This document shows, piece after piece, positions 8,348 to 48,361 of a stretch of 56,428 nucleotides of DNA. Source of the stretch: an uncultured bacterium (GTDB taxonomy: Bacteria; Patescibacteriota; Patescibacteriia; UBA1558; GWA2-36-10); assembly GCA_903876815.1 (NCBI GenBank), contig CAIRBL010000080.1, forward strand, positions 1-56,428, read 5' to 3'. Each line of letters opens with the position of its first letter. Position 1 is the stretch's first letter. The notes under the pieces were generated by a model. That model was not told where the DNA came from, did not search any database, and worked only from the letters and a program-made list of their open reading frames with translations. Made by a program: the position numbers and the translations under genes.

Positions 8348-8926
8348 TTATTTACGCCACAATTTGTGCCAACGACCAGTTTTGAACAACCACCATTTAT
8401 GATGTAAAAGAAAATCTAAATCCAAAAATTTATGTTGTTTACGATTAAAAAACCAGAGACACATCAACCAAAGTAAATAGACAAAAATTGCAAAAACTAA
8501 AAATCCAAAGCTTAAAATAAGCCATTGCCAAACACTACTGATTTTTGCCGTATTGATTGTTAAAGGAATTTTGATACCAGAAGCAGCTTTAAAACTATTT
8601 TGATGCAAAGCTTGGCTGATAACTGATAAATTTGTCTTTTGTACAGCTGACACTTGAGTAGAAAAATTAGCTGTCAGCTCAATCATCATGATTTCTTCTG
8701 GCAAAAGATTGAATTCACTAGGCTCAATTTTAATATTGTTGACCAAAGCATCAGCTTGCACTCGTACAAAAATAGGCTCGCTGGAAATATTGGTAATTTT
8801 TAATTTTTCTTGCTTATTTTGCGGATAATCTAGCTCTATTTTAGCTGGCTCCACTGCCAAACCAACCGCCCCAACATGTAGTGGTACCAAAAAAAGCAAA
8901 AATAGAAAAATAAATTTCACGCGCAT
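8348..8926 (-). CDS. secreted Ig/PapD-like beta-sandwich protein with C-terminal TM anchor and basic tail
   Basis: Signal peptide; LAVEPAKIELDYPQNKQEKLKITNISSEPIFVRVQ resembles the last domain of the upstream 586-aa protein; C-terminal TM helix plus a K/R/H/W-rich tail. 6-nt gap from the upstream gene. Confidence 0.55.
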   Translation of the reverse strand: MRVKFIFLFLLFLVPLHVGAVGLAVEPAKIELDYPQNKQEKLKITNISSEPIFVRVQADALVNNIKIEPSEFNLLPEEIMMIELTANFSTQVSAVQKTNLSVISQALHQNSFKAASGIKIPLTINTAKISSVWQWLILSFGFLVFAIFVYLLWLMCLWFFNRKQHKFLDLDFLLHHKWWLFKTGRWHKLWRK

Positions 8927-8932
8927 AAAAAA

Positions 8933-10693
8933 TTATTGTGCTTGTGCCCAAAAAATTAACTGACCAGTTTGGTTACCTGAGCTGGATAAATTGTTTGGCA
9001 AACTGAGCTTCACACTCACAGACTCAGAGCCAGCTACACCCAACTGCTCTTGCCAATTTTGCCAAATAATATTTTCTAAACTAGTGTGTTGCACAAAAAC
9101 ATCAGAACCTGAAATATTAGCTTCCAAATGAATGGCTACGTTACCTGTGTTATGAACTTGCAAAATATTTTCTCCAATTTGACCTGGTTGTAACTGACCA
9201 AAATTTAGACTAGCTTGACTGACAGAAAACGAAACTTGTTCTGGTGGGTTTTCTTCTCCATCATTGTCTATATTTACTGACAAATCTACACTCTGACTAA
9301 ACCCAGAACCAAGCGTAACGTAAACCTTGGGACTTCTAATATAATCATCATTTTGCACCACATAAACCGGATACACGCCATTATTAGCTAAATTTAAACT
9401 TAAACTGCCACTAGCGTCGGTATTTAAAACTTGATCACCGACTTGCACTGCCTGATTGCTTAAATTGTGCCAAGTACCATCATGATATTGGGCTTGCACA
9501 TTCAGAATATTTTCACTCAAAGTAGCTGTTAAACGACTAGGCAAAATATCAAAGGGACCATAAGCCCACAAAATTTCATCACCGTCAGCCACTGTCTGCA
9601 CATTAGCTGCCTGTGAGCCTGCTTGCCAATTTTGCCAATACTGCCAACCACTAACTCCTTGTCCACTAAAACCAGCAATCATGGAAACATAAGGCCCATA
9701 CTCTGTATCTTGGATTTGATAAGTAAAATTACACACACTCGCAGCACTAACCAAAACATCTAACACTGTTTGGCCACTCAAATTATCGGCTAAACAAATA
9801 GTATCAGTCGGGCCCTCAATTCTAATGCTGACCTGTGTATCGTTATTATTATTTTCTTCAGCAGGAATATCTATGTGATTGACGGGATAGCTTTTGTCTA
9901 AAATAGCAAGCAAGGCATAGGCTGTGACCATACCAGAGCCCTGTGTATCACTTGGGAGCCATAAAAATGAACCGTCTGCTTGTTGTAAACTGTTTAAAAA
10001 ACTTAAAGGTGTATTAGCGCCTTGAGACCAAGTATTAGCATCAATATCTAGCTTATTTAAAGCCGCTAGTACCCAAGCTGTTGAAGCGCCATCTGAGTCA
10101 CTAGCTGCATCATAAGCAAAACCACCATTTGTTTTTTGCGTAGTTTGTAGATAATTTAAAGCATTGATAATAGCTGTATTACTGCTAGCCACACCAGCCT
10201 CCTTGAGAGCCATAATAGCTGCCGCTGTATCATTACTGTCTGAAGTGCCACTTGTGGCCCAAGACCAACCACCATCAGTATTTTGATGACTTAAAATAAA
10301 ATCTTTCACGCTATTAAAGTCTCCGGCTTTATTTACTGAGCCTGCTGCCAACAAAGCCCAAAAATCATCATTTAATTGCGTATCAGAACCAAACTGACCA
10401 TTACTAATATGTCCGCTCAAAGTTGCAAACAAAGTACGCAAAGTCTCAAAATCCTGACTTTGTACAGAGCTCAAAGCTAATAAATATTTAGCCACTTTCA
10501 TAAGATCTTGCTCTTGAGGATTGACGTAGCTAGTTGATAAATTTTGCTGATTAGCTGCTGCTAAACTTTGTGTAATCCAAGGATTTTGCGTTTGCGCTTG
10601 CAAATACTGGATAGCACTAGCATTGTCGGCAAAAGATAAAAATGGCACTAACAACAAGGCATTGAGTAAAAATAAAGCAAGAATTTTTTTCAT
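8933..10693 (-). CDS. secreted transcobalamin-like protein: alpha/alpha-toroid (prenyltransferase/SQHop-type) repeats, DUF4430 (transcobalamin-like C-terminal) domain and two Ig-like domains
   Basis: Signal peptide. Repeats NTDGGWSW, TNGGFAY and ADGSFLW. DUF4430-like GVSGWQYWQNWQAGSQAANVQTVADGDEILWAYG (about 9568..9832). Lies directly behind a cobalamin riboswitch. Confidence 0.65.
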   Translation of the reverse strand: MKKILALFLLNALLLVPFLSFADNASAIQYLQAQTQNPWITQSLAAANQQNLSTSYVNPQEQDLMKVAKYLLALSSVQSQDFETLRTLFATLSGHISNGQFGSDTQLNDDFWALLAAGSVNKAGDFNSVKDFILSHQNTDGGWSWATSGTSDSNDTAAAIMALKEAGVASSNTAIINALNYLQTTQKTNGGFAYDAASDSDGASTAWVLAALNKLDIDANTWSQGANTPLSFLNSLQQADGSFLWLPSDTQGSGMVTAYALLAILDKSYPVNHIDIPAEENNNNDTQVSIRIEGPTDTICLADNLSGQTVLDVLVSAASVCNFTYQIQDTEYGPYVSMIAGFSGQGVSGWQYWQNWQAGSQAANVQTVADGDEILWAYGPFDILPSRLTATLSENILNVQAQYHDGTWHNLSNQAVQVGDQVLNTDASGSLSLNLANNGVYPVYVVQNDDYIRSPKVYVTLGSGFSQSVDLSVNIDNDGEENPPEQVSFSVSQASLNFGQLQPGQIGENILQVHNTGNVAIHLEANISGSDVFVQHTSLENIIWQNWQEQLGVAGSESVSVKLSLPNNLSSSGNQTGQLIFWAQAQ

Positions 10694-10813: not shown

Positions 10814-10879
10814 CAACGAGTAAGTCTATTATCTTTTGACATGTGATGATAACAAGCTCACTCCTTTTCTCCTTAGGAA

Positions 10880-11000
10880 AAAGAATAAACAAACTTCAGG
10901 TATCTGACTTATCTCCGCCAATGGCAGAGCTTACAGTAGCTAGGACTGTGGAGGTTTTACACCTCGCTTCCCTGATTAAATTTTAAAGGTAACTTTCGCT
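10880..11000 (-). promoter_or_regulatory. cobalamin (B12) riboswitch aptamer
   Basis: Minus strand reads AAUCAGGGAAGCGAGGUGUAAAACCUCCACAGUCCUAGCUACUGUAAGC, then hairpin CUCUGCC-AUU-GGCGGAG, then the B12-box-like AAGUCAGAUACCUGAAG (10894..10910). This matches the GGGAA..GGUG.AA..CC..C.G.CC..GC.ACUGUAA core. Confidence 0.8.
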
Positions 11001-11005
11001 CTCAA

Positions 11006-11034
11006 ACTTTAGCACAAGATTTTAGCTTTGACAA
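11006..11034 (-). promoter_or_regulatory. sigma70-type promoter for the riboswitch transcript
   Basis: TTGTCA (11034..11029), 17-nt spacer ending in TGc, then TAAAGT (11011..11006). Confidence 0.45.
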
Positions 11035-43336: not shown

Positions 43337-46258
43337 TTAGGCTTTGGCAAAAGGACAAATTTTATTAAAATCACAAGTTGAACAGGCCCAGCCAGGTGTG
43401 GCGGTAAAATCTCCTGACAAAATAGCAGCAATACTTTCTAAAATCCACAGTTTAGTTTTTTCAATTTCTTTATCCGTGCCCACAAAAGATACTGGTGTAT
43501 TATTGCTCAAATAATAAAAAGTTAAATTTTTTACTTTAGTTTGAAAAACCACTTCAGCAGCTATCTGATAAATCAATAATTGCTTTTTATCTTCAAAAGT
43601 AATCTTCTCACCTTTAGCTTGGCCGGTTTTATAATCCATAATCTCCCAAGTATTGTTTTCTGCTACATCCACTCTATCAAATACGCCTTTGAGAGTATAA
43701 TCTTTAACTTTGATATTAAAACCTTTTTCCAAAAATAATGGTACCGGCCAATTACCTTCAAATTTATAATAAAATTCTTTTAAAATTCTTTCGCCATCAA
43801 GACGATATTTTTCTTTTTCTAAAGCGCCATTGTACCAATCATCAATCCAAGACTCTGCATAAAAGTTTAATAAATCTTTTAATTCAGGCATTGGCGCTTG
43901 AATTTTTTGGCCAAACAAATCATTTTGTGTTTTTTCTCGACTCAAAATAATAGCATTAAAAAACTTTTGCAAAGTCGCATGCATAGTTTTACCAAAACTA
44001 AAACTTGCTTTACCCTTACTCTGCAGTTTCACTACATGCGAATAATAATATTGTCTTGGGCAAGTCTCATAAGCTTTGAGCTGAGAAAAAGAAAAAGTTT
44101 TGGGAATGACATTTTTTACTTTCTCGAATTTCGTGTCCACAGCAACGGGCTCTTTGACATCTTTATTAGGAACATCTTGAGCGGCTAGTTTAATCTCTTC
44201 GATAAAACGAGAAGGTTTACGCTCTCTGACTCCACCATAGTCCTTGGCAAAAGTAAGATAAGCTGCTTTTTTTGCACGAGTCATAGCTACATAAAACAAA
44301 CGCCTTTCTTCTTGCAAATGCGCGTCACCACTAGGTAACTGCTCTTTGATAAAAGTTTCAGGCATAGCAATAGGGTCACGTCTTTCAGTGCTAGGAAAAC
44401 GCAAGTGTGCTAAATTTGTGATAAAAACATATTTAAACTCTAAACCTTTTGAGCCATGTACGGTCATAATTTTGATAGCTTCAGGACCAGCCTCTGCATC
44501 TTGACGCATAGCGCCCTGCTCGCCTGATTCTAACTCCATTTCCATGGTAGCTAAAAATTGATGGATAGAAGGATCTAGGGCCTCTTCTTCCCAAACTCTA
44601 ACTTTTTTAAAAAACTGATTTAAAAAATGGAGCTGTTCACGACTATAAACACTATCTTCTAAAGTCAATAATTTGAGATAGCCGCTTTCTTCCAGCCAAA
44701 CATAAATAACATTTGAGGTTGGTTTTGATTTTGCCAATTCAGTGTGACTTTTGATCAAATCCAAAACATTGCGAATAATTTTTTGTTCACTAGCATCAAT
44801 AGTGAGATGTCCATAATAATTTTGTAGAGTATAGTATAAACTCCAAGATTTCTTGTAAGCCAAATGATTGAGATTAATCAAAGTTTTGATATCTAAATTT
44901 ACACAAGGCAGACTTAAAATTCTAAACAAAGCTCCCGACTCATGATAATTATCGAGCAATTTCAAGTAGGCTAAAATATCCAAGACAATATCTTGACCAT
45001 ACAAACCACGCGATGCCAAAAATTGATGTGGCCAACCAACTTTTCTGAGCATGGAAACAAAACCACTAGCTTGATCATTGGCTCTGACTAAAATCGCAAA
45101 ATCTGACCAAGTCAAAGACTTATCTTTTTGTTTGAGATTTAAAATTTTATTCAAGATGCCATCTACTTCAGCATTTTTGTCAGCAAAAGAAAGCACCTTG
45201 ACCTCGCCCTCGTCCTCACTATGACTGATTAATTTTTTATTTAATTTTTTCTTACCCACTTTTAGTTGCGCTTCCAAACGATCAGGGTTATTGGCTTTGA
45301 TAAAATTATAAGCAGTGTCTAAAATTTTTTGACCAGAACGATAATTGTCTACCAAAAAAATTTGGGCGCTTTCAGGAAAATCATGTCGGAAACTCAAAAT
45401 ATTGGAAATAGCCGCACCTCTAAATTTATAAATTGCCTGATCATCATCGCCCACTACCATCAAATTATTTTTTGGTGAAGCCAAAATTTTTATAAGCTCA
45501 TATTGCGCCCAGTTGGTATCCTGAAATTCATCGACTAAAATATACTTAAACTGCTCACGAAATTTGGCTAAAATCGCTGGACGCTCTCTAAATAAACGCA
45601 AAGTATAATTGATAAGATCACCAAAGTCTAAAGCATTTTTGGAAAGCAATAGCTCTTGGTAAACATGATAAGCGTTAGCAATTTCTTGTACTCTTTTTAT
45701 TTCTAATTCTGCGTCTTGTCTATCTAAAGCTAAATCTGCATCTAATTTTAAATTTTGGGCGTATTCCAAATAGCTTTCTGGATAAACTACTTCGTCTTTA
45801 CAACGCGAAAAATGTGAAAGCAAAGCGTGAATAAATTTGGTCGGATTACCTAGTGGCCTGTAATAATCCAAATCAAATTTATCCAAATTTTCCCTGACTA
45901 GCATCCAAGCCGCCGTGGAATCAAGCAGTTTAAAATCATTTGGCAAGCCAATATCTAAAGCATAATTTTTCAAAACTTTTTCGGCAAAACCATGAAAAGT
46001 ATGAATCCACAGCTCAGCATAACCCAAGGGCAAAAGCTGATCTACGCGCTCAGCCATTTCACCGGCCGCTTTTTCAGTAAAAGTAACGGCCAAAATTTCC
46101 TCCGGTTTAGCCTTTTTTTTGGCAATCAAATGAGCAATGCGCTGAGTAATCACGGTTGTCTTTCCGGTGCCCGCCCCAGCAATGAGCATCACCGGCCCGG
46201 AATCGTGTAAAACCGCCTGCTTTTGCGCTTTATTTAGTTGTGTTAAGTCTACTGGCAT
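43337..46258 (-). CDS. UvrD/PcrA-type SF1 helicase fused to a C-terminal PD-(D/E)XK (Cas4/AddB-type) nuclease with a four-Cys cluster
   Basis: AGAGTGKTT, DEFQDTN, VGDDDQAIYKFRGA, TVHGSKGLEF and YVAMTRAK. Then ETCPRQYYY, FDRVD..EIMDYKTG and CSTCDFNKICP. ATG at 46258 (track start 46294 is TTG). Confidence 0.85.
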   Translation of the reverse strand: MPVDLTQLNKAQKQAVLHDSGPVMLIAGAGTGKTTVITQRIAHLIAKKKAKPEEILAVTFTEKAAGEMAERVDQLLPLGYAELWIHTFHGFAEKVLKNYALDIGLPNDFKLLDSTAAWMLVRENLDKFDLDYYRPLGNPTKFIHALLSHFSRCKDEVVYPESYLEYAQNLKLDADLALDRQDAELEIKRVQEIANAYHVYQELLLSKNALDFGDLINYTLRLFRERPAILAKFREQFKYILVDEFQDTNWAQYELIKILASPKNNLMVVGDDDQAIYKFRGAAISNILSFRHDFPESAQIFLVDNYRSGQKILDTAYNFIKANNPDRLEAQLKVGKKKLNKKLISHSEDEGEVKVLSFADKNAEVDGILNKILNLKQKDKSLTWSDFAILVRANDQASGFVSMLRKVGWPHQFLASRGLYGQDIVLDILAYLKLLDNYHESGALFRILSLPCVNLDIKTLINLNHLAYKKSWSLYYTLQNYYGHLTIDASEQKIIRNVLDLIKSHTELAKSKPTSNVIYVWLEESGYLKLLTLEDSVYSREQLHFLNQFFKKVRVWEEEALDPSIHQFLATMEMELESGEQGAMRQDAEAGPEAIKIMTVHGSKGLEFKYVFITNLAHLRFPSTERRDPIAMPETFIKEQLPSGDAHLQEERRLFYVAMTRAKKAAYLTFAKDYGGVRERKPSRFIEEIKLAAQDVPNKDVKEPVAVDTKFEKVKNVIPKTFSFSQLKAYETCPRQYYYSHVVKLQSKGKASFSFGKTMHATLQKFFNAIILSREKTQNDLFGQKIQAPMPELKDLLNFYAESWIDDWYNGALEKEKYRLDGERILKEFYYKFEGNWPVPLFLEKGFNIKVKDYTLKGVFDRVDVAENNTWEIMDYKTGQAKGEKITFEDKKQLLIYQIAAEVVFQTKVKNLTFYYLSNNTPVSFVGTDKEIEKTKLWILESIAAILSGDFTATPGWACSTCDFNKICPFAKA

Positions 46259-46290
46259 ATAGTCTATTTTAGCTAAAAACAACTTTTTTG

Positions 46291-46319
46291 GCAAAGGAAA
46301 AAGGCGACCTAAGTCGCCT
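46291..46319 (-). terminator. terminator of the 73-aa ORF; the stop codon lies in the loop
   Basis: AGGCGAC-TTAG-GTCGCCT followed by TTTTTCCTTTGC on minus. The tail CGCCTTTTTCCTTTGC is repeated at 46610..46625. Confidence 0.7.
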
Positions 46320-46530
46320 CCTGTGCATCGTTTTGCAAACGTGGGTCATAGACAGAGTGACAATGCTCGCATTTGACCAGACCGCCAGCCTCATCACAAA
46401 ACTCGCTATCGTATGAGCCACAATGAGGACATTGCGATTCTGGATAACCGCGAGTAAAAAGTGAAAAGAATTTTTTGACGCCCCATCCAATGATGATGAC
46501 GACGGCAAGCAAACCAATGATCCGCCACAT
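46309..46530 (-). CDS. small membrane-anchored zinc-ribbon protein (GC-rich cassette)
   Basis: AAGGGAG sits 7 nt before the ATG. TM helix IIGLLAVVIIIGWGV, then CPHC..(16)..CEHC. Confidence 0.6.
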   Translation of the reverse strand: MWRIIGLLAVVIIIGWGVKKFFSLFTRGYPESQCPHCGSYDSEFCDEAGGLVKCEHCHSVYDPRLQNDAQEAT

Positions 46531-46609
46531 GTCGAGTCTCCCTTCTATGCGTTGAAATGATTTAAGGTTCTCTAATACTTATTATTTTTAACACAAATAA
46601 TAAATTTTA

Positions 46610-46643
46610 GCAAAGGAAAAAGGCGGTACCTTGCGACACCGCC
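46610..46643 (-). terminator. terminator of the 36-aa ORF
   Basis: GGCGGT..ACCGCC stem followed by TTTTTCCTTTGC on minus. Confidence 0.55.
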
Positions 46644-46651
46644 CCTGCTGT

Positions 46652-46762
46652 TCAGTTGTGCAGAATGTCCTGCTCAAAATCGCCACTCTTGATCTTACGC
46701 CAAGCAGTAACGAGGTAAAACAGGCACAAAATGCCAACCATGATGGAACCTGCATGGTCCAT
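46652..46762 (-). CDS. 36-aa single-TM peptide (GC-rich cassette)
   Basis: AGGAGGAG lies immediately upstream of ATG 46762. Sequence MDHAGSIMVGILCLFYLVTAWRKIKSGDFEQDILHN, TGA stop. The 90-aa version in the ORF track is probably an over-extension. Confidence 0.5.
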   Translation of the reverse strand: MDHAGSIMVGILCLFYLVTAWRKIKSGDFEQDILHN

Positions 46763-46784
46763 CTCTCCTCCTATGAAGCTTCTT

Positions 46785-47324
46785 TCACACCTTACAAACG
46801 CAAAGGTAGCATTCGTCAGGCTCCCCAGAAAATGGCTGCTCCAGGTCCCGAGGAAGCAACAAGATTGAATGCATGTCCACACCCATATCAGCTGCCTGCC
46901 GTAGATTCTTGAGTGCTCGCTCAAAATTCACTCGTGGAAAAGCGCCAGGATTTAGAAGAATTTCCTCTACATATTGCCGCAAGAAATCTTGTGCAATCTT
47001 AGTCCTTTTCTGTAAATGACGAATATGTTGCGCTCTCTCTTCTTCGGCCGAAGAAAAAGCACGACTACCGCCATAAGCACCACAGTCCCAGTGATTACAT
47101 AGAACAACTTGCCTAACGCCATGCAGCCCAATAGACACCTCAACTAAGTTTCTCAGAGTGGTCTCTCCTACTTGACAACCAAGCTTGAGATCCTTCACTC
47201 CACCAGGATGGGTGTAGGGGTCAATGACATGACCGCCTACAAGATGTCTGGCTGCCCTCAGCATTGTTTCTGTCCACGCACCATCGACACAACCGATAAG
47301 TGCGCCATGATAGACACGCGACAT
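46785..47324 (-). CDS. divergent beta-carbonic-anhydrase-like protein, GC-rich xenolog of the neighbouring 149-aa gene
   Basis: GCVDGA (CxDxR with the Arg lost), GLHGV and VVLCNHWDCGAYGGSRAF (HxxCG). ATG at 47324 preceded by GGGGG (track start 47351 is TTG). Hand count 34/60 G+C in 46801..46860. Confidence 0.5.
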   Translation of the reverse strand: MSRVYHGALIGCVDGAWTETMLRAARHLVGGHVIDPYTHPGGVKDLKLGCQVGETTLRNLVEVSIGLHGVRQVVLCNHWDCGAYGGSRAFSSAEEERAQHIRHLQKRTKIAQDFLRQYVEEILLNPGAFPRVNFERALKNLRQAADMGVDMHSILLLPRDLEQPFSGEPDECYLCVCKV

Positions 47325-47375
47325 AAAACCCCCATGTGTTTTTTGTGCCAACTCTGTTGTAAATGAAGCTAAGAT

Positions 47376-47403
47376 ATTCTACACCTATTAAAAAATATGT
47401 CAA
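47376..47403 (-). promoter_or_regulatory. sigma70-type promoter of the GC-rich cassette
   Basis: TTGACA (47403..47398), 16 nt, TAGAAT (47381..47376), within AT-rich host-like sequence. Confidence 0.5.
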
Positions 47404-47421: not shown

Positions 47422-47453
47422 AAAAAATCAGCCCCAGCTTAAGCTGGGGCTGA
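47422..47453 (-). terminator. terminator closing the atp operon plus the 149-aa gene
   Basis: Palindrome TCAGCCCCAGCTT/AAGCTGGGGCTGA followed by TTTTTT on minus. Confidence 0.8.
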
Positions 47454-47464
47454 TGAAATATCTT

Positions 47465-47914
47465 TTATTCTAAAACTAAATATTCCAAACCTTGTGGTAC
47501 AATTTTTGAGTAAGCTAAGACAATTTCTAAATCATCTGGTAATTCTTTTGCTAAAATGTCTCTGACAGCTTGTAAGTCTTTGGTATATTGTTGCTCTTCT
47601 GCTTGCTGTGAAGCAAAAGCATGACTACCACCATAGCCACCACAATCCCAGTGCCAAAGTAATAATAATTTTTTTACTCCATGCAAACCACGAGAGACAG
47701 TCACAATCTTCTCTACCAGCGATGTTTTAAAACCATTTAATTTCAAAACCTCTTTAGCTGCTCCTGGCCAAGAAAATAAATCAAAATCTGTATAACCTAA
47801 ACCTTTTTCGACAAATTCTTGATCAGAAGTTCGAAAACGAAAATCCACACATTTAATAACTGCCAAAGGACATTCGTGTTTTTGTAAATTATCATTAGGT
47901 ATTGTGTATTTCAT
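47465..47914 (-). CDS. beta-carbonic-anhydrase-like zinc protein (native composition), last gene of the atp transcription unit
   Basis: IKCVDFRF (CxDxR) and LLLLWHWDCGGYGGS (HxxCG) match the beta-CA zinc-ligand motifs. Starts 12 nt after the atpC stop. Confidence 0.5.
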   Translation of the reverse strand: MKYTIPNDNLQKHECPLAVIKCVDFRFRTSDQEFVEKGLGYTDFDLFSWPGAAKEVLKLNGFKTSLVEKIVTVSRGLHGVKKLLLLWHWDCGGYGGSHAFASQQAEEQQYTKDLQAVRDILAKELPDDLEIVLAYSKIVPQGLEYLVLE

Positions 47915-47926
47915 ATTTTTAAAAAG

Positions 47927-48361
47927 TTATTGCAAATTATGCATACCTTTTTGTTTGTATTTTCTCGCCACTCGCAAACGATTCAATTCTTTTTCTAAAG
48001 TAGCTGACAACATGGCAAATTGCTCACTATCAACATGTTCTTCTTTCAAAGCAGCTTCAGCGCGCTGTCTTGCTTCCTCTGCTCGCTGCTCATCAATATC
48101 AGCTGCATACTCTGCACGGTCTGCTAAAATAATCACCTCATCAGGCAAAACCTCAATAAAACCACCAAAGACCGCCATCAAACTTACTTCTTTGTTCTGA
48201 TGTTTGACAATAATCTCTCCTGGCGCCAACTGGCTAATAAGGGGCAAATGATGGGGCAAAATGGTAATTTGGCCAGAAGTCGTCGAAACAGACAGCTGGT
48301 CAACCTCATCGGTCAAAACCACTCTTTCTGGGGTAACTATTTTTAGCTTAAATTTATCCAT
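47927..48361 (-). CDS. atpC: F1 ATP synthase epsilon subunit
   Basis: LKIVTPERVV..GQITILPHHLPLIS plus a helical C-terminal domain. Position after atpD. Confidence 0.9.
   Translation of the reverse strand: MDKFKLKIVTPERVVLTDEVDQLSVSTTSGQITILPHHLPLISQLAPGEIIVKHQNKEVSLMAVFGGFIEVLPDEVIILADRAEYAADIDEQRAEEARQRAEAALKEEHVDSEQFAMLSATLEKELNRLRVARKYKQKGMHNLQ

What the first reader, a model, noticed from the sequence alone, without database searches (positions are those of the whole stretch)
46295..47403. Compositionally foreign three-ORF cassette between the helicase-nuclease gene and the atp operon terminator
Coding sequence here is far more GC-rich than its surroundings. Hand counts give 34/60 G+C in 46801..46860 against 19/60 in 47521..47580. 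It also uses codons that are rare elsewhere in the window (CTG, GAG, CGG, AGG, GGC). The cassette encodes a 179-aa beta-CA-like protein, a 36-aa TM peptide and a 73-aa TM plus CxxC..CxxC zinc-ribbon protein. It is bounded by the atp terminator (47422..47453) and its own terminator (46291..46319). A host-like AT-rich promoter (TTGACA-16-TAGAAT) drives it. The function of the trio is unknown. A membrane peptide plus a membrane zinc ribbon plus a zinc-enzyme-like protein is not an arrangement I can name.
Basis: partly seen in the sequence, partly recalled or inferred. Interest (0 to 1): 0.72.

Follow-up and report, generated by a model that had tools for sequence, protein, structure and literature searches.

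The report
Ancestral GC-rich carbonic-anhydrase-like gene module
The GC-rich patch is real, but it is not a recent foreign insert: it is an old, vertically inherited pair of genes (a second carbonic-anhydrase-like zinc protein plus a tiny membrane protein) that sits behind the ATP-synthase operon in a whole lineage of Patescibacteria and is GC-rich in every one of them, with a small variable zinc-ribbon gene added downstream.

Summary
Observation confirmed. 46295..47403 is the most GC-rich stretch of the window (0.458 vs 0.362). All three ORFs have excess GC3 (z 3.8-4.3 given their amino acids), and the promoter and terminators are present. Seven independent assemblies carry the region 100% identical, so it is not a chimera.

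The "foreign cassette" reading fails for two of the three ORFs. The 179-aa Pro_CA_2 protein and the 36-aa membrane peptide occupy the same slot (atpC - short Pro_CA_2 paralog - long Pro_CA_2 - peptide - helicase) in every relative found. The long gene keeps this position even in lineages only 24-30% identical. It is GC-rich against its neighbours in all ten lineages, although synonymous sites between the more distant of them are saturated. Its dS matches the flanks, it shows no GC->AT decay, and no donor, phage or plasmid copy exists.

A continuing force must therefore maintain the composition. The best candidate is selection for a folded mRNA (z -6.1, with some compensatory pair changes).

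The region is two transcription units, not one. The 73-aa membrane zinc ribbon forms its own unit, bracketed by a 40-nt direct repeat, and is present or absent among close relatives.

Function is inferred: a CO2/HCO3-/H+ module attached to the ATP synthase. The long paralog lacks the catalytic Arg.

The parts
47465..47914 (-). Short Pro_CA_2 paralog (149 aa). It is the last gene of the atp operon, 12 nt after atpC. It is AT-rich (GC3 0.19) and carries the full beta-CA motif set: CVDFR and HWDCG.
   Evidence: PF20393 at 38.6 bits against a cut-off of 30. 32% identical to the 179-aa protein. Conserved directly after atpC in L014, L021 and L024-L026. Motifs shown.
47427..47454 (-). Intrinsic terminator of the atp operon plus short-CA transcript.
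   Evidence: 12-bp stem followed by a T run. -24.1 kcal/mol, z -6.2.
47376..47403 (-). Near-consensus sigma-70 promoter (TTGACA-16-TAGAAT) of the long-CA/peptide unit.
   Evidence: 11 of 12 positions match. ATTGACATATTTTTT..GGTGTA(G/A)AAT is conserved in L014, L021, L008 and L011, with a looser TTGACA..TATAAT version in L024; L020, whose contig starts inside the element, keeps only the -10 half. It is kept even where the upstream gene differs.
46785..47324 (-). Long Pro_CA_2 paralog (179 aa) with a beta-CA-like fold. Zn-ligand candidates C12, H78 and C81 plus D14 are invariant. The Arg of CxDxR is replaced (CVDGAW). An extra P-x-[DE]-C motif (C172) is conserved. GC 0.485, GC3 0.41.
   Evidence: PF20393 at 32.8 bits against a cut-off of 30; PF00484 is below its cut-off. 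AF2 pLDDT 87.7. The Foldseek top 50 are all beta-CAs. Alignments. Composition.
46763..46772 (-). Shine-Dalgarno sequence AGGAGGAGAG in front of the 36-aa ORF.
   Evidence: Read from the sequence. GGAGG is conserved in all relatives.
46652..46762 (-). 36-aa single-pass membrane micro-protein (MDHAGSIMVGILCLFYLVTAWRKIKSGDFEQDILHN). The topology is inferred as N-out/C-in, with a cytoplasmic tail. GC3 0.60.
   Evidence: Conserved at the same position in L008, L009, L010, L014-17, L020 and L021, with the motif AWRKLKxGDFxxDI(L/W)H(N/S). dN/dS is 0.19-0.35 in most pairs. Called as a gene in L008 and L014.
46619..46646 (-). Intrinsic terminator ending the long-CA/peptide unit.
   Evidence: A similar GGCGGT(A/C)CC...CCGCC stem followed by a T-rich tail (TTTTTTCTT, then TGC, GGG or ATT) is present in L014, L008, L009 and L011.
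46586..46625 (-). Direct-repeat copy A: terminator tail CGCCTTTTTCCTTTGC plus an AT-rich leader. It contains a weak promoter-like TTGCTA-17-TAAAAA for the 73-aa gene.
   Evidence: Repeat D1, 40 nt, 75% identity, 319-nt spacing. The 15-mer occurs exactly twice in the window against 0.01 expected. The leader is conserved in L009 and L021. The promoter was read by eye (8 of 12) and was not reported by the scan.
46309..46530 (-). 73-aa protein: an N-terminal TM helix followed by a C4 zinc ribbon (CPHC...CEHC). This is a variable accessory unit. GC3 0.47.
   Evidence: ORF. Zinc-ribbon Pfam hits all fall below their cut-offs. Only itself is found in the 5.8e9-protein search. A 28%-identical TM-zinc-ribbon ORF with the same C-terminus (QEAT*) and the same terminator lies in L009, and a second TM-zinc-ribbon type lies in L009 and L021, all at the same site.
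46291..46319 (-). Terminator of the 73-aa unit. The stem-loop GGCGAC-TTAG-GTCGCC contains the stop codon and is followed by TTTTTCC.
   Evidence: -18.3 kcal/mol, z -4.0. An identical 19-mer lies at the end of the L009 insertion.
46267..46306 (-). Direct-repeat copy B. It overlaps the helicase promoter-like site TTGCCA-17-TAAAAT (46294..46266).
43337..46258 (-). UvrD/PD-(D/E)XK helicase-nuclease, the right-hand syntenic anchor. GC3 is raised in its first ~270 nt.
   Evidence: Pfam domains. Synteny. GC3 bins.

Best explanation
The patch is an ancestral, vertically inherited accessory module of the ATP-synthase locus in a Patescibacteria (CPR) lineage. It is not an imported cassette.

Unit 1 runs from a near-consensus promoter through the long Pro_CA_2 paralog and a Shine-Dalgarno-led 36-aa single-pass membrane micro-protein to a terminator. 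The long paralog has a beta-CA fold and keeps the Cys/His/Cys zinc site and the Asp. It has lost the catalytic Arg and gained a conserved C-terminal Cys.

Unit 2 runs from a weak promoter through the 73-aa membrane-anchored zinc ribbon to a terminator. It is an indel-polymorphic add-on bracketed by a duplicated terminator-tail/promoter repeat. Relatives gain or, more likely, lose it by recombination between those repeats.

The GC-richness of unit 1 is a lineage-wide, long-maintained property. The most likely cause (inferred) is selection for a stably folded mRNA, which in an AT-rich genome needs G:C pairs.

Function is inferred, not shown. The module is probably part of a CO2/HCO3-/H+ handling system coupled to the F-type ATPase. 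The AT-rich short paralog, co-transcribed with the atp genes, would be the catalytic carbonic anhydrase. The Arg-less long paralog would be a regulatory or altered-specificity zinc protein acting at the membrane together with the micro-protein's cytoplasmic tail.
For: Synteny:
- The long gene lies between the atp operon (or the short CA) and the helicase in P0001-P0005 loci that are 91-45% identical.
- The long gene also lies directly upstream of the helicase in L023, L025 and L026, which are only 24-30% identical; in L024 a methyltransferase follows it instead. In L024-L026 it follows the short CA behind atpC, and in L023 it follows complex-I/Mrp-like genes.

Composition:
- The long gene is GC-rich against its neighbours in all ten lineages. 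Examples: L026 GC3 0.72 vs 0.36, L023 0.54 vs 0.27, L024 0.61 vs 0.38.

Vertical descent:
- dS of the long gene is about the same as dS of the helicase: 0.43 vs 0.55 for window-L020 and 1.2 vs 1.0 for window-L011.
- dN/dS is 0.14-0.34 against 0.03-0.14 in the flanks.
- There is no excess of GC->AT changes: 20 W>S vs 10 S>W, the same ratio as in the helicase.

No donor:
- The GTDB species set gave one relative, metagenome contigs gave one already-known locus, viral contigs none, and phage and plasmid records none.

mRNA structure:
- The operon RNA has z -6.1 against dinucleotide shuffles.
- Long-gene CDS z-scores in nine lineages run from -0.3 to -4.0 (mean about -2.4). Seven control CDS run from +0.4 to -1.4.
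- 21 pairs show changes on both sides, against 10.7 +/- 2.3 in shuffles (0 of 500) and 3-11 in slid controls.

Protein:
- PF20393 is above its cut-off, AF2 pLDDT is 87.7, and the Foldseek top 50 are all beta-CAs.
- C12, D14, H78 and C81 are invariant.

Locus theme:
- Relatives carry a CsoSCA_cat-like gene (36.5 bits) and a Na+/H+ exchanger in the same slot.
- A distant short-type member lies directly upstream of atpI in an unrelated contig.

Unit 2:
- A 40-nt direct repeat brackets it.
- L009 differs from L008 by an insertion with the same leader and the same terminator as in the window. The two loci encode the same long Pro_CA_2 protein, and their flanks match almost base for base over the parts read.
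- L021 has duplicated terminators around its zinc-ribbon gene.
Against: - No experiment or expression data exist for any of this. Carbonic-anhydrase activity of the Pro_CA_2 family is only a database name.
- Covariation rests on six related sequences, and RNAalifold's covariation term is about 0.
- Three lineages (L014, L024, L021) show weak z-scores.
- One conspicuous hairpin (FSS..EEE) also appears in the short paralog, so it may be a by-product of the amino-acid motif.
- Some identities are incongruent with the flanks. The window long gene is closer to L008 than to L011, although its helicase is closer to L011. Local recombination therefore cannot be excluded.
- The peptide is absent from the distant lineages L023-L026 and is interrupted by a stop in L011-13. 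The pairing is therefore not universal.
- The raised GC3 in the first ~270 nt of the helicase suggests a regional effect rather than a purely gene-specific one.
Confidence: 0.6

Rival explanations
1. Recent horizontal acquisition. Under this reading a three-gene cassette from a GC-richer donor was inserted between the atp terminator and the helicase gene of this genome.
For: Composition and codon usage are atypical. Several short contigs end ~400 nt inside the helicase, as can happen at strain-variable borders.
Against: - The same genes occupy the same place in all relatives, and the long gene does so down to 24% identity.
- The anomaly is shared by all of them.
- dS equals that of the flanks, and there is no amelioration signal.
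- There is no integrase, tRNA or IS nearby.
- No donor or mobile copy was found.
- The promoter is conserved with the gene.
Confidence: 0.03
2. Recombination hot spot. Under this reading the slot between atpC and the helicase exchanges alleles among co-occurring relatives, or receives them repeatedly from unsampled GC-rich relatives. GC-biased gene conversion or repeated replacement then keeps it GC-rich.
For: - Incongruent identities: in L008 vs L014 the helicase is 96% and pheS 96% identical, but the long CA is 49% and the short CA 56%. In window vs L014 the helicase is 79% but the short CA 89%.
- The slot has variable gene content: CsoSCA-like gene, Na/H exchanger, zinc-ribbon units, a second peptide.
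- GC3 is also raised in the adjoining 5' end of the helicase in this sub-clade.
- Between window and L008, pS of the peptide is only 0.17 against 0.59-0.66 in the flanks.
Against: - The adjacent short paralog shows the same incongruence yet has the lowest GC3 of all genes (0.16-0.23).
- dS of the long gene is not clearly above that of the flanks. The low protein identity is explained by a higher dN/dS and by degeneration in L008 and L011, where the zinc motif is deleted.
- No background genome reaches the GC of the gene (0.55-0.58 in L024 and L026).
- No outside alleles turned up in 5.8e9 proteins.
Confidence: 0.17
3. Translation throttling or neutral by-product. Under this reading the GC-rich, rare codons are selected to slow or limit translation of a strongly transcribed unit. 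Alternatively the composition simply follows a Gly/Ala/Arg-rich protein, with no RNA-level role.
For: - The promoter is near consensus while the unit is rich in codons that are rare in this genome (CTG, CGG, AGG).
- GC1 and GC2 are also raised (0.63 and 0.41).
Against: - The GC3 excess remains at z 3.8-4.3 after conditioning on the amino acids, so amino-acid content alone is insufficient.
- Shuffles that keep codon content still fold worse than the native sequence.
- No expression data are available to judge throttling.
Confidence: 0.15
4. Assembly chimera joining DNA of two organisms.
For: None beyond the compositional jump.
Against: The sequence across both junctions is 100% identical in seven contigs from different samples and three assembly pipelines. 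Relatives show the same order.
Confidence: 0.01

Closest known systems
Pfam PF20393 Pro_CA_2 ('putative carbonic anhydrase'); PGAP names members 'carbonic anhydrase' in Patescibacteria MAGs
   Same: Both window paralogs score above the gathering cut-off (32.8 and 38.6 bits against 30). NCBI names for relatives are 'MAG: carbonic anhydrase [Patescibacteria group bacterium]'.
   Different: The 179-aa protein belongs to a rare long sub-type. About 10 clusters at 50% identity cover the C-terminal extension, and only 5 of 569 representatives score below 1e-30. This sub-type has CxDGx[WY] instead of CxDxR, a ~45-residue C-terminal extension and a conserved P-x-[DE]-C motif. I found no paper on the family.
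Beta-class carbonic anhydrases (PF00484; e.g. M. tuberculosis Rv1284, M. thermautotrophicus Cab, H. influenzae HICA)
   Same: The fold matches: the Foldseek top 50 are all beta-CAs with probability ~1. The HxxCG region aligns to Rv1284 (E 1.5e-3). The Cys/His/Cys ligand positions and the Asp are conserved.
   Different: - TM-scores are only 0.32-0.44.
- PF00484 is below its cut-off (18.9 against 25.7).
- The Arg of the Asp-Arg dyad is missing in the long form.
- No activity data exist.
- From general knowledge of beta-CAs, loss of the dyad Arg favours the Asp-ligated 'closed' zinc site.
Carbonic anhydrase / ion-transporter 'metabolons', and CA genes linked to Na+/H+ antiporters or carboxysome CsoSCA
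   Same: In relatives the same slot holds a CsoSCA_cat-like protein and a Na+/H+ exchanger next to the two Pro_CA_2 genes, directly behind the ATP-synthase operon. A short-type member precedes atpI in another genome.
   Different: No carboxysome genes are present and no physical interaction has been shown. Linkage to an F-type ATPase operon is, to my knowledge, not a described arrangement, and the literature search found nothing.
Small accessory membrane proteins of enzyme complexes (e.g. CydX, KdpF, AtpI-type small subunits)
   Same: The 36-aa protein is a single-pass, conserved peptide with its own SD. It is encoded immediately after its presumed partner.
   Different: No sequence similarity to any Pfam, NCBIfam, PADLOC or PHROG family was found. 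The partner and the role are unknown.
Genomic islands / horizontally acquired cassettes
   Same: Composition and codon usage are atypical, and the borders at a terminator and a promoter are sharp.
   Different: The module is present in all relatives, with no mobility genes, no donor and no amelioration signal (see the membership test).

Membership tests
Pfam Pro_CA_2 (PF20393) | Score at or above the curated gathering cut-off (30 bits). | tested here: met
   Long form 32.8 bits and short form 38.6 bits. L023 and L026 long forms 33.1 and 33.9 bits.
Beta-class carbonic anhydrase | Zinc ligands Cys ... His-x-x-Cys. | tested here: met
   C12, H78 and C81 are invariant in 14 long and short sequences. 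HWDCG aligns to HHTDCG of Rv1284. The geometry was not inspected.
Beta-class carbonic anhydrase | Asp-Arg dyad (C-x-D-x-R). | tested here: not met
   The long form has CVDGAW: Asp is present and Arg is replaced by A, W, L, E, D or M in all long forms. The window's short form has CVDFR.
Beta-class carbonic anhydrase | Beta-CA fold. | tested here: met
   The AF2 model has pLDDT 87.7. All of the Foldseek PDB top 50 are beta-CAs, with E down to 6e-6 and probability ~1, but TM-scores are only 0.32-0.44.
Beta-class carbonic anhydrase | Pfam PF00484 gathering score. | tested here: not met
   18.9 bits against a cut-off of 25.7.
Beta-class carbonic anhydrase | Zinc binding and CO2 hydration activity. 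| not testable with these tools
   Needs purified protein.
Horizontally acquired island/cassette | Atypical base composition and codon usage. | tested here: met
Horizontally acquired island/cassette | Patchy presence: absent from close relatives at an otherwise conserved site. | tested here: not met
   The long CA is present at the same site in all 10 lineages. The peptide is present in the whole sub-clade. Only the 73-aa unit is patchy.
Horizontally acquired island/cassette | Mobility signatures (integrase/transposase, tRNA target, flanking repeats). | tested here: not met
   There is no tRNA in the window and no such ORF nearby. The only repeat is the 40-nt terminator/promoter duplication around the 73-aa unit.
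Horizontally acquired island/cassette | Identifiable donor, or copies on mobile elements or in other contexts. | tested here: not met
   All homologs lie in the same syntenic slot of related Patescibacteria.
Horizontally acquired island/cassette | Ongoing amelioration (excess GC->AT changes). | tested here: not met
   W>S 20 against S>W 10 at third positions, the same ratio as in the helicase (69 against 33). The counts are small and polarisation was by parsimony.
C4 zinc ribbon | Two CxxC knuckles about 15-20 residues apart, recognised by a curated model. | tested here: inconclusive
   CPHC...(14)...CEHC is present. All 21 Pfam zinc-ribbon hits fall below their cut-offs; the best is 23.3 bits against 28.6.
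Conserved structured RNA | Folding energy beyond composition, together with compensatory base-pair changes. | tested here: inconclusive
   - z -6.1 for the operon RNA.
- CDS z-scores average about -2.4 against about -0.6 in controls.
- 21 double-sided pairs against 10.7 +/- 2.3 in shuffles.
- The RNAalifold covariation term is +0.13 on six sequences.
- No Rfam match was found.

The most novel reading that the evidence does not exclude
The long Pro_CA_2/micro-peptide unit may be a previously undescribed ATP-synthase-associated accessory system of Patescibacteria. In this reading an Arg-less, possibly non-catalytic beta-CA-fold zinc protein is docked at the membrane by a 36-aa micro-protein, with optional membrane zinc-ribbon partners. 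It would sense or buffer CO2/HCO3-/pH for the F-ATPase. Its persistently GC-rich coding sequence would be kept by selection because the mRNA itself is a functional folded element, for example one that couples or gates translation of the peptide.
Probability: 0.2. Interest if true: 0.7.

Novelty: new variant of a known kind. Interest (0 to 1): 0.45.

Why it matters
1. It is a clean counter-example to the rule 'atypical GC means recent horizontal transfer'. A single gene stays 10-36 GC3 points above its neighbours in ten lineages, the more distant of which are saturated at synonymous sites. Composition here reports a continuing constraint, probably at the RNA level, rather than ancestry.

2. It points to an unstudied link between beta-CA-like zinc proteins and the ATP-synthase operon in CPR bacteria. 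How these organisms manage energy and pH is still unclear.

3. It adds a conserved 36-aa membrane micro-protein, and a family of small membrane zinc ribbons, that gene callers mostly miss.

If the functional guess is wrong, the finding reduces to an ordinary lineage-specific pair of hypothetical genes with odd composition.

Tried and rejected
- Chimeric assembly: rejected, because independent assemblies are identical.
- Phage, plasmid or defence origin: there are no tblastn hits in the phage or plasmid collections, no viral-contig relatives, and only noise in PADLOC and PHROGs.
- Known RNA family in the patch: none. Only terminator-like sub-threshold hits appeared.
- High-expression codon bias: rejected. 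The best background GC3 is 0.37 (atpC), and the enrichment is in G-ending rare codons.
- Xenologous replacement as the main cause of the low identity between close relatives: not supported by dS.
- The FSS..EEE hairpin as proof of RNA-level selection: dropped, because the short paralog forms it too.
- P0010, a 2967-aa hit in the representative search, is a repeat-protein artefact.
- Searches that returned nothing usable: genome-wide pattern scans with the broad alignment A1 failed for lack of a conserved stretch, and the literature searches on PF20393 and on CA plus atp operon plus Patescibacteria found nothing relevant.
- Not attempted: a fused long-CA + peptide structure prediction. The tool description restricts input to window sequences and proteins returned by the search for homologous proteins, so a fusion was not submitted.
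Full report
**1. Observation**

All genes in this part of the window are on the minus strand. The order is atpD, atpC (47927..48361), a 149-aa ORF (47465..47914), a strong terminator (47427..47454), and a promoter TTGACA-16-TAGAAT (47403..47376). Then come the 179-aa ORF (46785..47324), a 36-aa ORF (46652..46762), a terminator (46619..46646), an AT-rich spacer, the 73-aa ORF (46309..46530) and a terminator (46291..46319). The UvrD/PD-(D/E)XK helicase-nuclease follows, starting at 46258.

The stretch 46295..47403 has GC 0.458 against 0.362 for the window, and it contains the two most GC-rich 300-nt windows of the whole 56 kb. Forty-five background genes have GC3 0.272 +/- 0.031, while the three ORFs have 0.41, 0.60 and 0.47.

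After conditioning on each ORF's amino acids and on background synonymous usage, the excess is z = 3.8, 4.3 and 3.8. CTG, CGG and GAG are used 6-, 8- and 2.3-fold more than in the background. The observation therefore stands.

Three corrections are needed:
- An internal terminator splits the 'trio' into two transcription units.
- The GC3-rich patch continues ~270 nt into the helicase.
- The AT-rich 149-aa neighbour is a paralog of the 179-aa protein (32% identity, both PF20393).

**2. Not an artefact**

The exact 179-aa and 73-aa proteins are encoded on ten or more contigs from different samples, produced by three assembly pipelines. The 2.5 kb spanning both junctions is 100% identical in seven of them.

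**3. Relatives**

The 179-aa protein has only seven relatives among 5.8e9 proteins. The GTDB species set yields one locus, the JGI metagenome scan yields one already-known locus, and viral contigs yield none.

Every relative lies in the same slot: atp operon, short Pro_CA_2, optional genes, long Pro_CA_2, small peptide, helicase, a 98-aa gene, pheS, pheT. The optional genes are a Na+/H+ exchanger (169 bits) and a 357-aa CsoSCA_cat-like protein (36.5 bits against a cut-off of 21.5).

A profile search of 1.84e9 representatives finds 569 family members, but only about ten clusters of the long type. I looked up the context of four distant long-type members (24-30% identity). In L024-L026 the order is again atpC, short CA, long CA, followed by the helicase in L025 and L026 and by a methyltransferase in L024. 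In L023 the long CA and the helicase follow complex-I/Mrp-like genes. NCBI labels two of these proteins 'carbonic anhydrase [Patescibacteria group bacterium]'. The host is therefore a CPR/Patescibacteria bacterium from stratified-lake metagenomes.

**4. The anomaly is old**

The long gene is GC-rich relative to its neighbours in all ten lineages:
- L014: GC3 0.40 against about 0.29.
- L008: 0.39 against 0.28.
- L011: 0.41 against 0.27.
- L021: 0.34 (its peptide 0.65) against 0.22.
- L023: 0.54 against 0.27.
- L024: 0.61 against 0.38.
- L025: 0.38 against 0.22.
- L026: 0.72 against 0.36.

Synonymous divergence of the long gene equals that of the flanking helicase: 0.43 against 0.55 for window-L020 and 1.2 against 1.0 for window-L011. 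Between the distant lineages it is saturated. Its dN/dS is 0.14-0.34 against 0.03-0.14 for the flanks. The gene therefore descends with its neighbours but evolves faster as a protein.

Polarised third-position changes between window and L020 show no GC->AT excess (20 W>S against 10 S>W, as in the helicase). An imported gene would have ameliorated long ago. Some continuing force keeps this gene GC-rich.

**5. What keeps it GC-rich (inferred)**

The operon RNA (46615..47370, minus strand) folds far better than dinucleotide shuffles (z -6.1). Long-gene CDS z-scores are -3.8, -3.1, -2.4, -1.6, -2.6, -4.0, -1.1, -2.3 and -0.3 in nine lineages. Seven control CDS give +0.4 to -1.4. Shuffles that only permute synonymous codons give the same picture.

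On a six-sequence alignment the consensus structure keeps 90% of cells paired. It has 21 pairs with changes on both sides, against 10.7 +/- 2.3 in shuffles (0 of 500) and 3-11 in slid controls. The best helices cover the peptide ORF (columns 645-732).

There are caveats. RNAalifold's covariation term is about 0. The structure was derived from the same sequences. One hairpin is a by-product of an FSS..EEE motif. I rate 'selection for a folded mRNA' as the leading explanation of the composition, at roughly even odds.

The main rivals are a recombination or gene-conversion hot spot and rare-codon throttling. The hot-spot idea is supported by incongruent identities and weakened by the very AT-rich short paralog next door.

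**6. The proteins**

The long protein models confidently (pLDDT 87.7). The Foldseek top 50 hits in the PDB, ranked by E-value, are all beta-carbonic anhydrases, and a profile search of PDB sequences gives only beta-CAs. C12, D14, H78 and C81 are invariant.

The short paralog has the complete CxDxR / HxxC set. All long forms have CxDGx[WY], with no Arg, plus a C-terminal extension carrying a conserved P-x-[DE]-C.

In the window a 1-nt deletion just after the C172 codon frameshifts the last six codons. This creates the Cys-rich tail CYLCVCKV instead of the CV(S/P)LxL seen in relatives.

The 36-aa peptide has its own GGAGG and is conserved in the whole sub-clade, with the motif AWRKLKxGDFxxDI(L/W)H(N/S). 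It is under purifying selection in most comparisons. By the positive-inside rule its tail is cytoplasmic (inference). It is interrupted by a stop codon in L011-13 and is absent from the distant lineages.

**7. The 73-aa unit**

This protein is an orphan in the protein search, but the unit as a whole is not unique. It is bracketed by a 40-nt direct repeat made of a terminator tail plus a promoter-like leader.

L009 differs from L008, a locus encoding the same long protein with almost identical flanking sequence where I read it, by an insertion at the same point. That insertion has the same leader, two TM-zinc-ribbon ORFs, the same C-terminal QEAT* and the same terminator 19-mer as the window. 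L021 carries a TM-zinc-ribbon gene there, between duplicated terminators that include the 3' end of the peptide gene. L008, L014, L020 and L011 lack the unit.

The unit is best read as an accessory transcription unit that is lost or gained by recombination between the terminator repeats.

**8. Mechanism proposed**

Shown:
- Synteny.
- Conservation.
- Fold class.
- Motif pattern.
- Promoter and terminator structure.
- Persistent composition.
- Excess RNA folding.

Inferred:
- The locus behind the ATP synthase is a CO2/HCO3-/H+ handling module. Supporting context is the two Pro_CA_2 genes, a CsoSCA-like gene and a Na+/H+ exchanger in relatives, and a short-type member upstream of atpI in an unrelated contig.
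- The short form is the catalytic CA.
- The Arg-less long form is a regulatory or altered zinc protein that works at the membrane with the micro-protein.

No data bear on activity or interaction.

**9. Verdict**

The long protein is a new variant (a long, Arg-less sub-type with a micro-protein partner) of an already catalogued family. The persistent compositional anomaly and the atp linkage are the interesting parts.

Noticed in passing
window 10878-11011 (-): Cobalamin riboswitch aptamer (RF00174) at 34.8 bits against a gathering score of 31.5, upstream of the 8933..10693 ORF.
   Followed up: no
window 16971-24935 (-): A giant 2654-aa ORF, moderately GC-rich (0.41-0.42 over parts of its length). 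It holds several of the next-best GC windows of the contig.
   Followed up: no
window ~46806-46811 (-): A 1-nt deletion relative to five relatives lies right after the Cys172 codon of the long Pro_CA_2. It frameshifts the last six codons and yields the Cys-rich tail CYLCVCKV. The deletion is identical in all independent assemblies.
   Followed up: partly
L011:8569-8667 (also L012, L013): The ortholog of the 36-aa peptide carries an in-frame stop at the conserved Trp in three assemblies of this lineage. The long gene there is also the most diverged relative to its flanks, which may indicate decay of the system.
   Followed up: partly
L008:1348-1755 and L011:6301-6714: In the two lineages that carry a CsoSCA_cat-like gene in the slot, the short Pro_CA_2 has lost the HxxC zinc motif by deletion. 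In L008 it has also lost the Cys of CxDxR. This looks like functional replacement.
   Followed up: partly
L023:6478-6600 and L026:2104-2225: A conserved GC-rich element of about 110 nt lies between the long-CA stop and the helicase promoter in distant lineages that lack the peptide. It has three hairpins, the last being a terminator. It has no Rfam match, and a short conserved reading frame is also possible.
   Followed up: partly
L008:5084-5200, L009:5048-5164, L011:~8687-8800, L021:1517-1651: A second small membrane peptide of about 38-44 aa (GTG start, AAGGAGG SD) follows the 36-aa peptide in four lineages. It is absent from the window.
   Followed up: no
L022:6001-6393: A distant short-type Pro_CA_2 (P0007, 130 aa) lies immediately upstream of atpI-atpB-... 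in an unrelated 612-kb contig. The family's linkage to F-ATPase operons therefore recurs outside this lineage.
   Followed up: no
window 46652-46762 vs L008:4955-5065: The synonymous difference of the peptide ORF between these two lineages is only 0.17, against 0.59-0.66 in the flanking genes, while a third of the residues differ. This could reflect local gene conversion or synonymous constraint.
   Followed up: no
window 47357-47370 and 46773-46786 (-): The 5' leader AGCUUCAU is repeated just upstream of the peptide's SD, within the self-complementary GAAGCUUC. The predicted fold pairs the mRNA 5' end with this site, closing the whole long-CA CDS into one domain. The pairing is kept, with a change, in L008.
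   Followed up: partly
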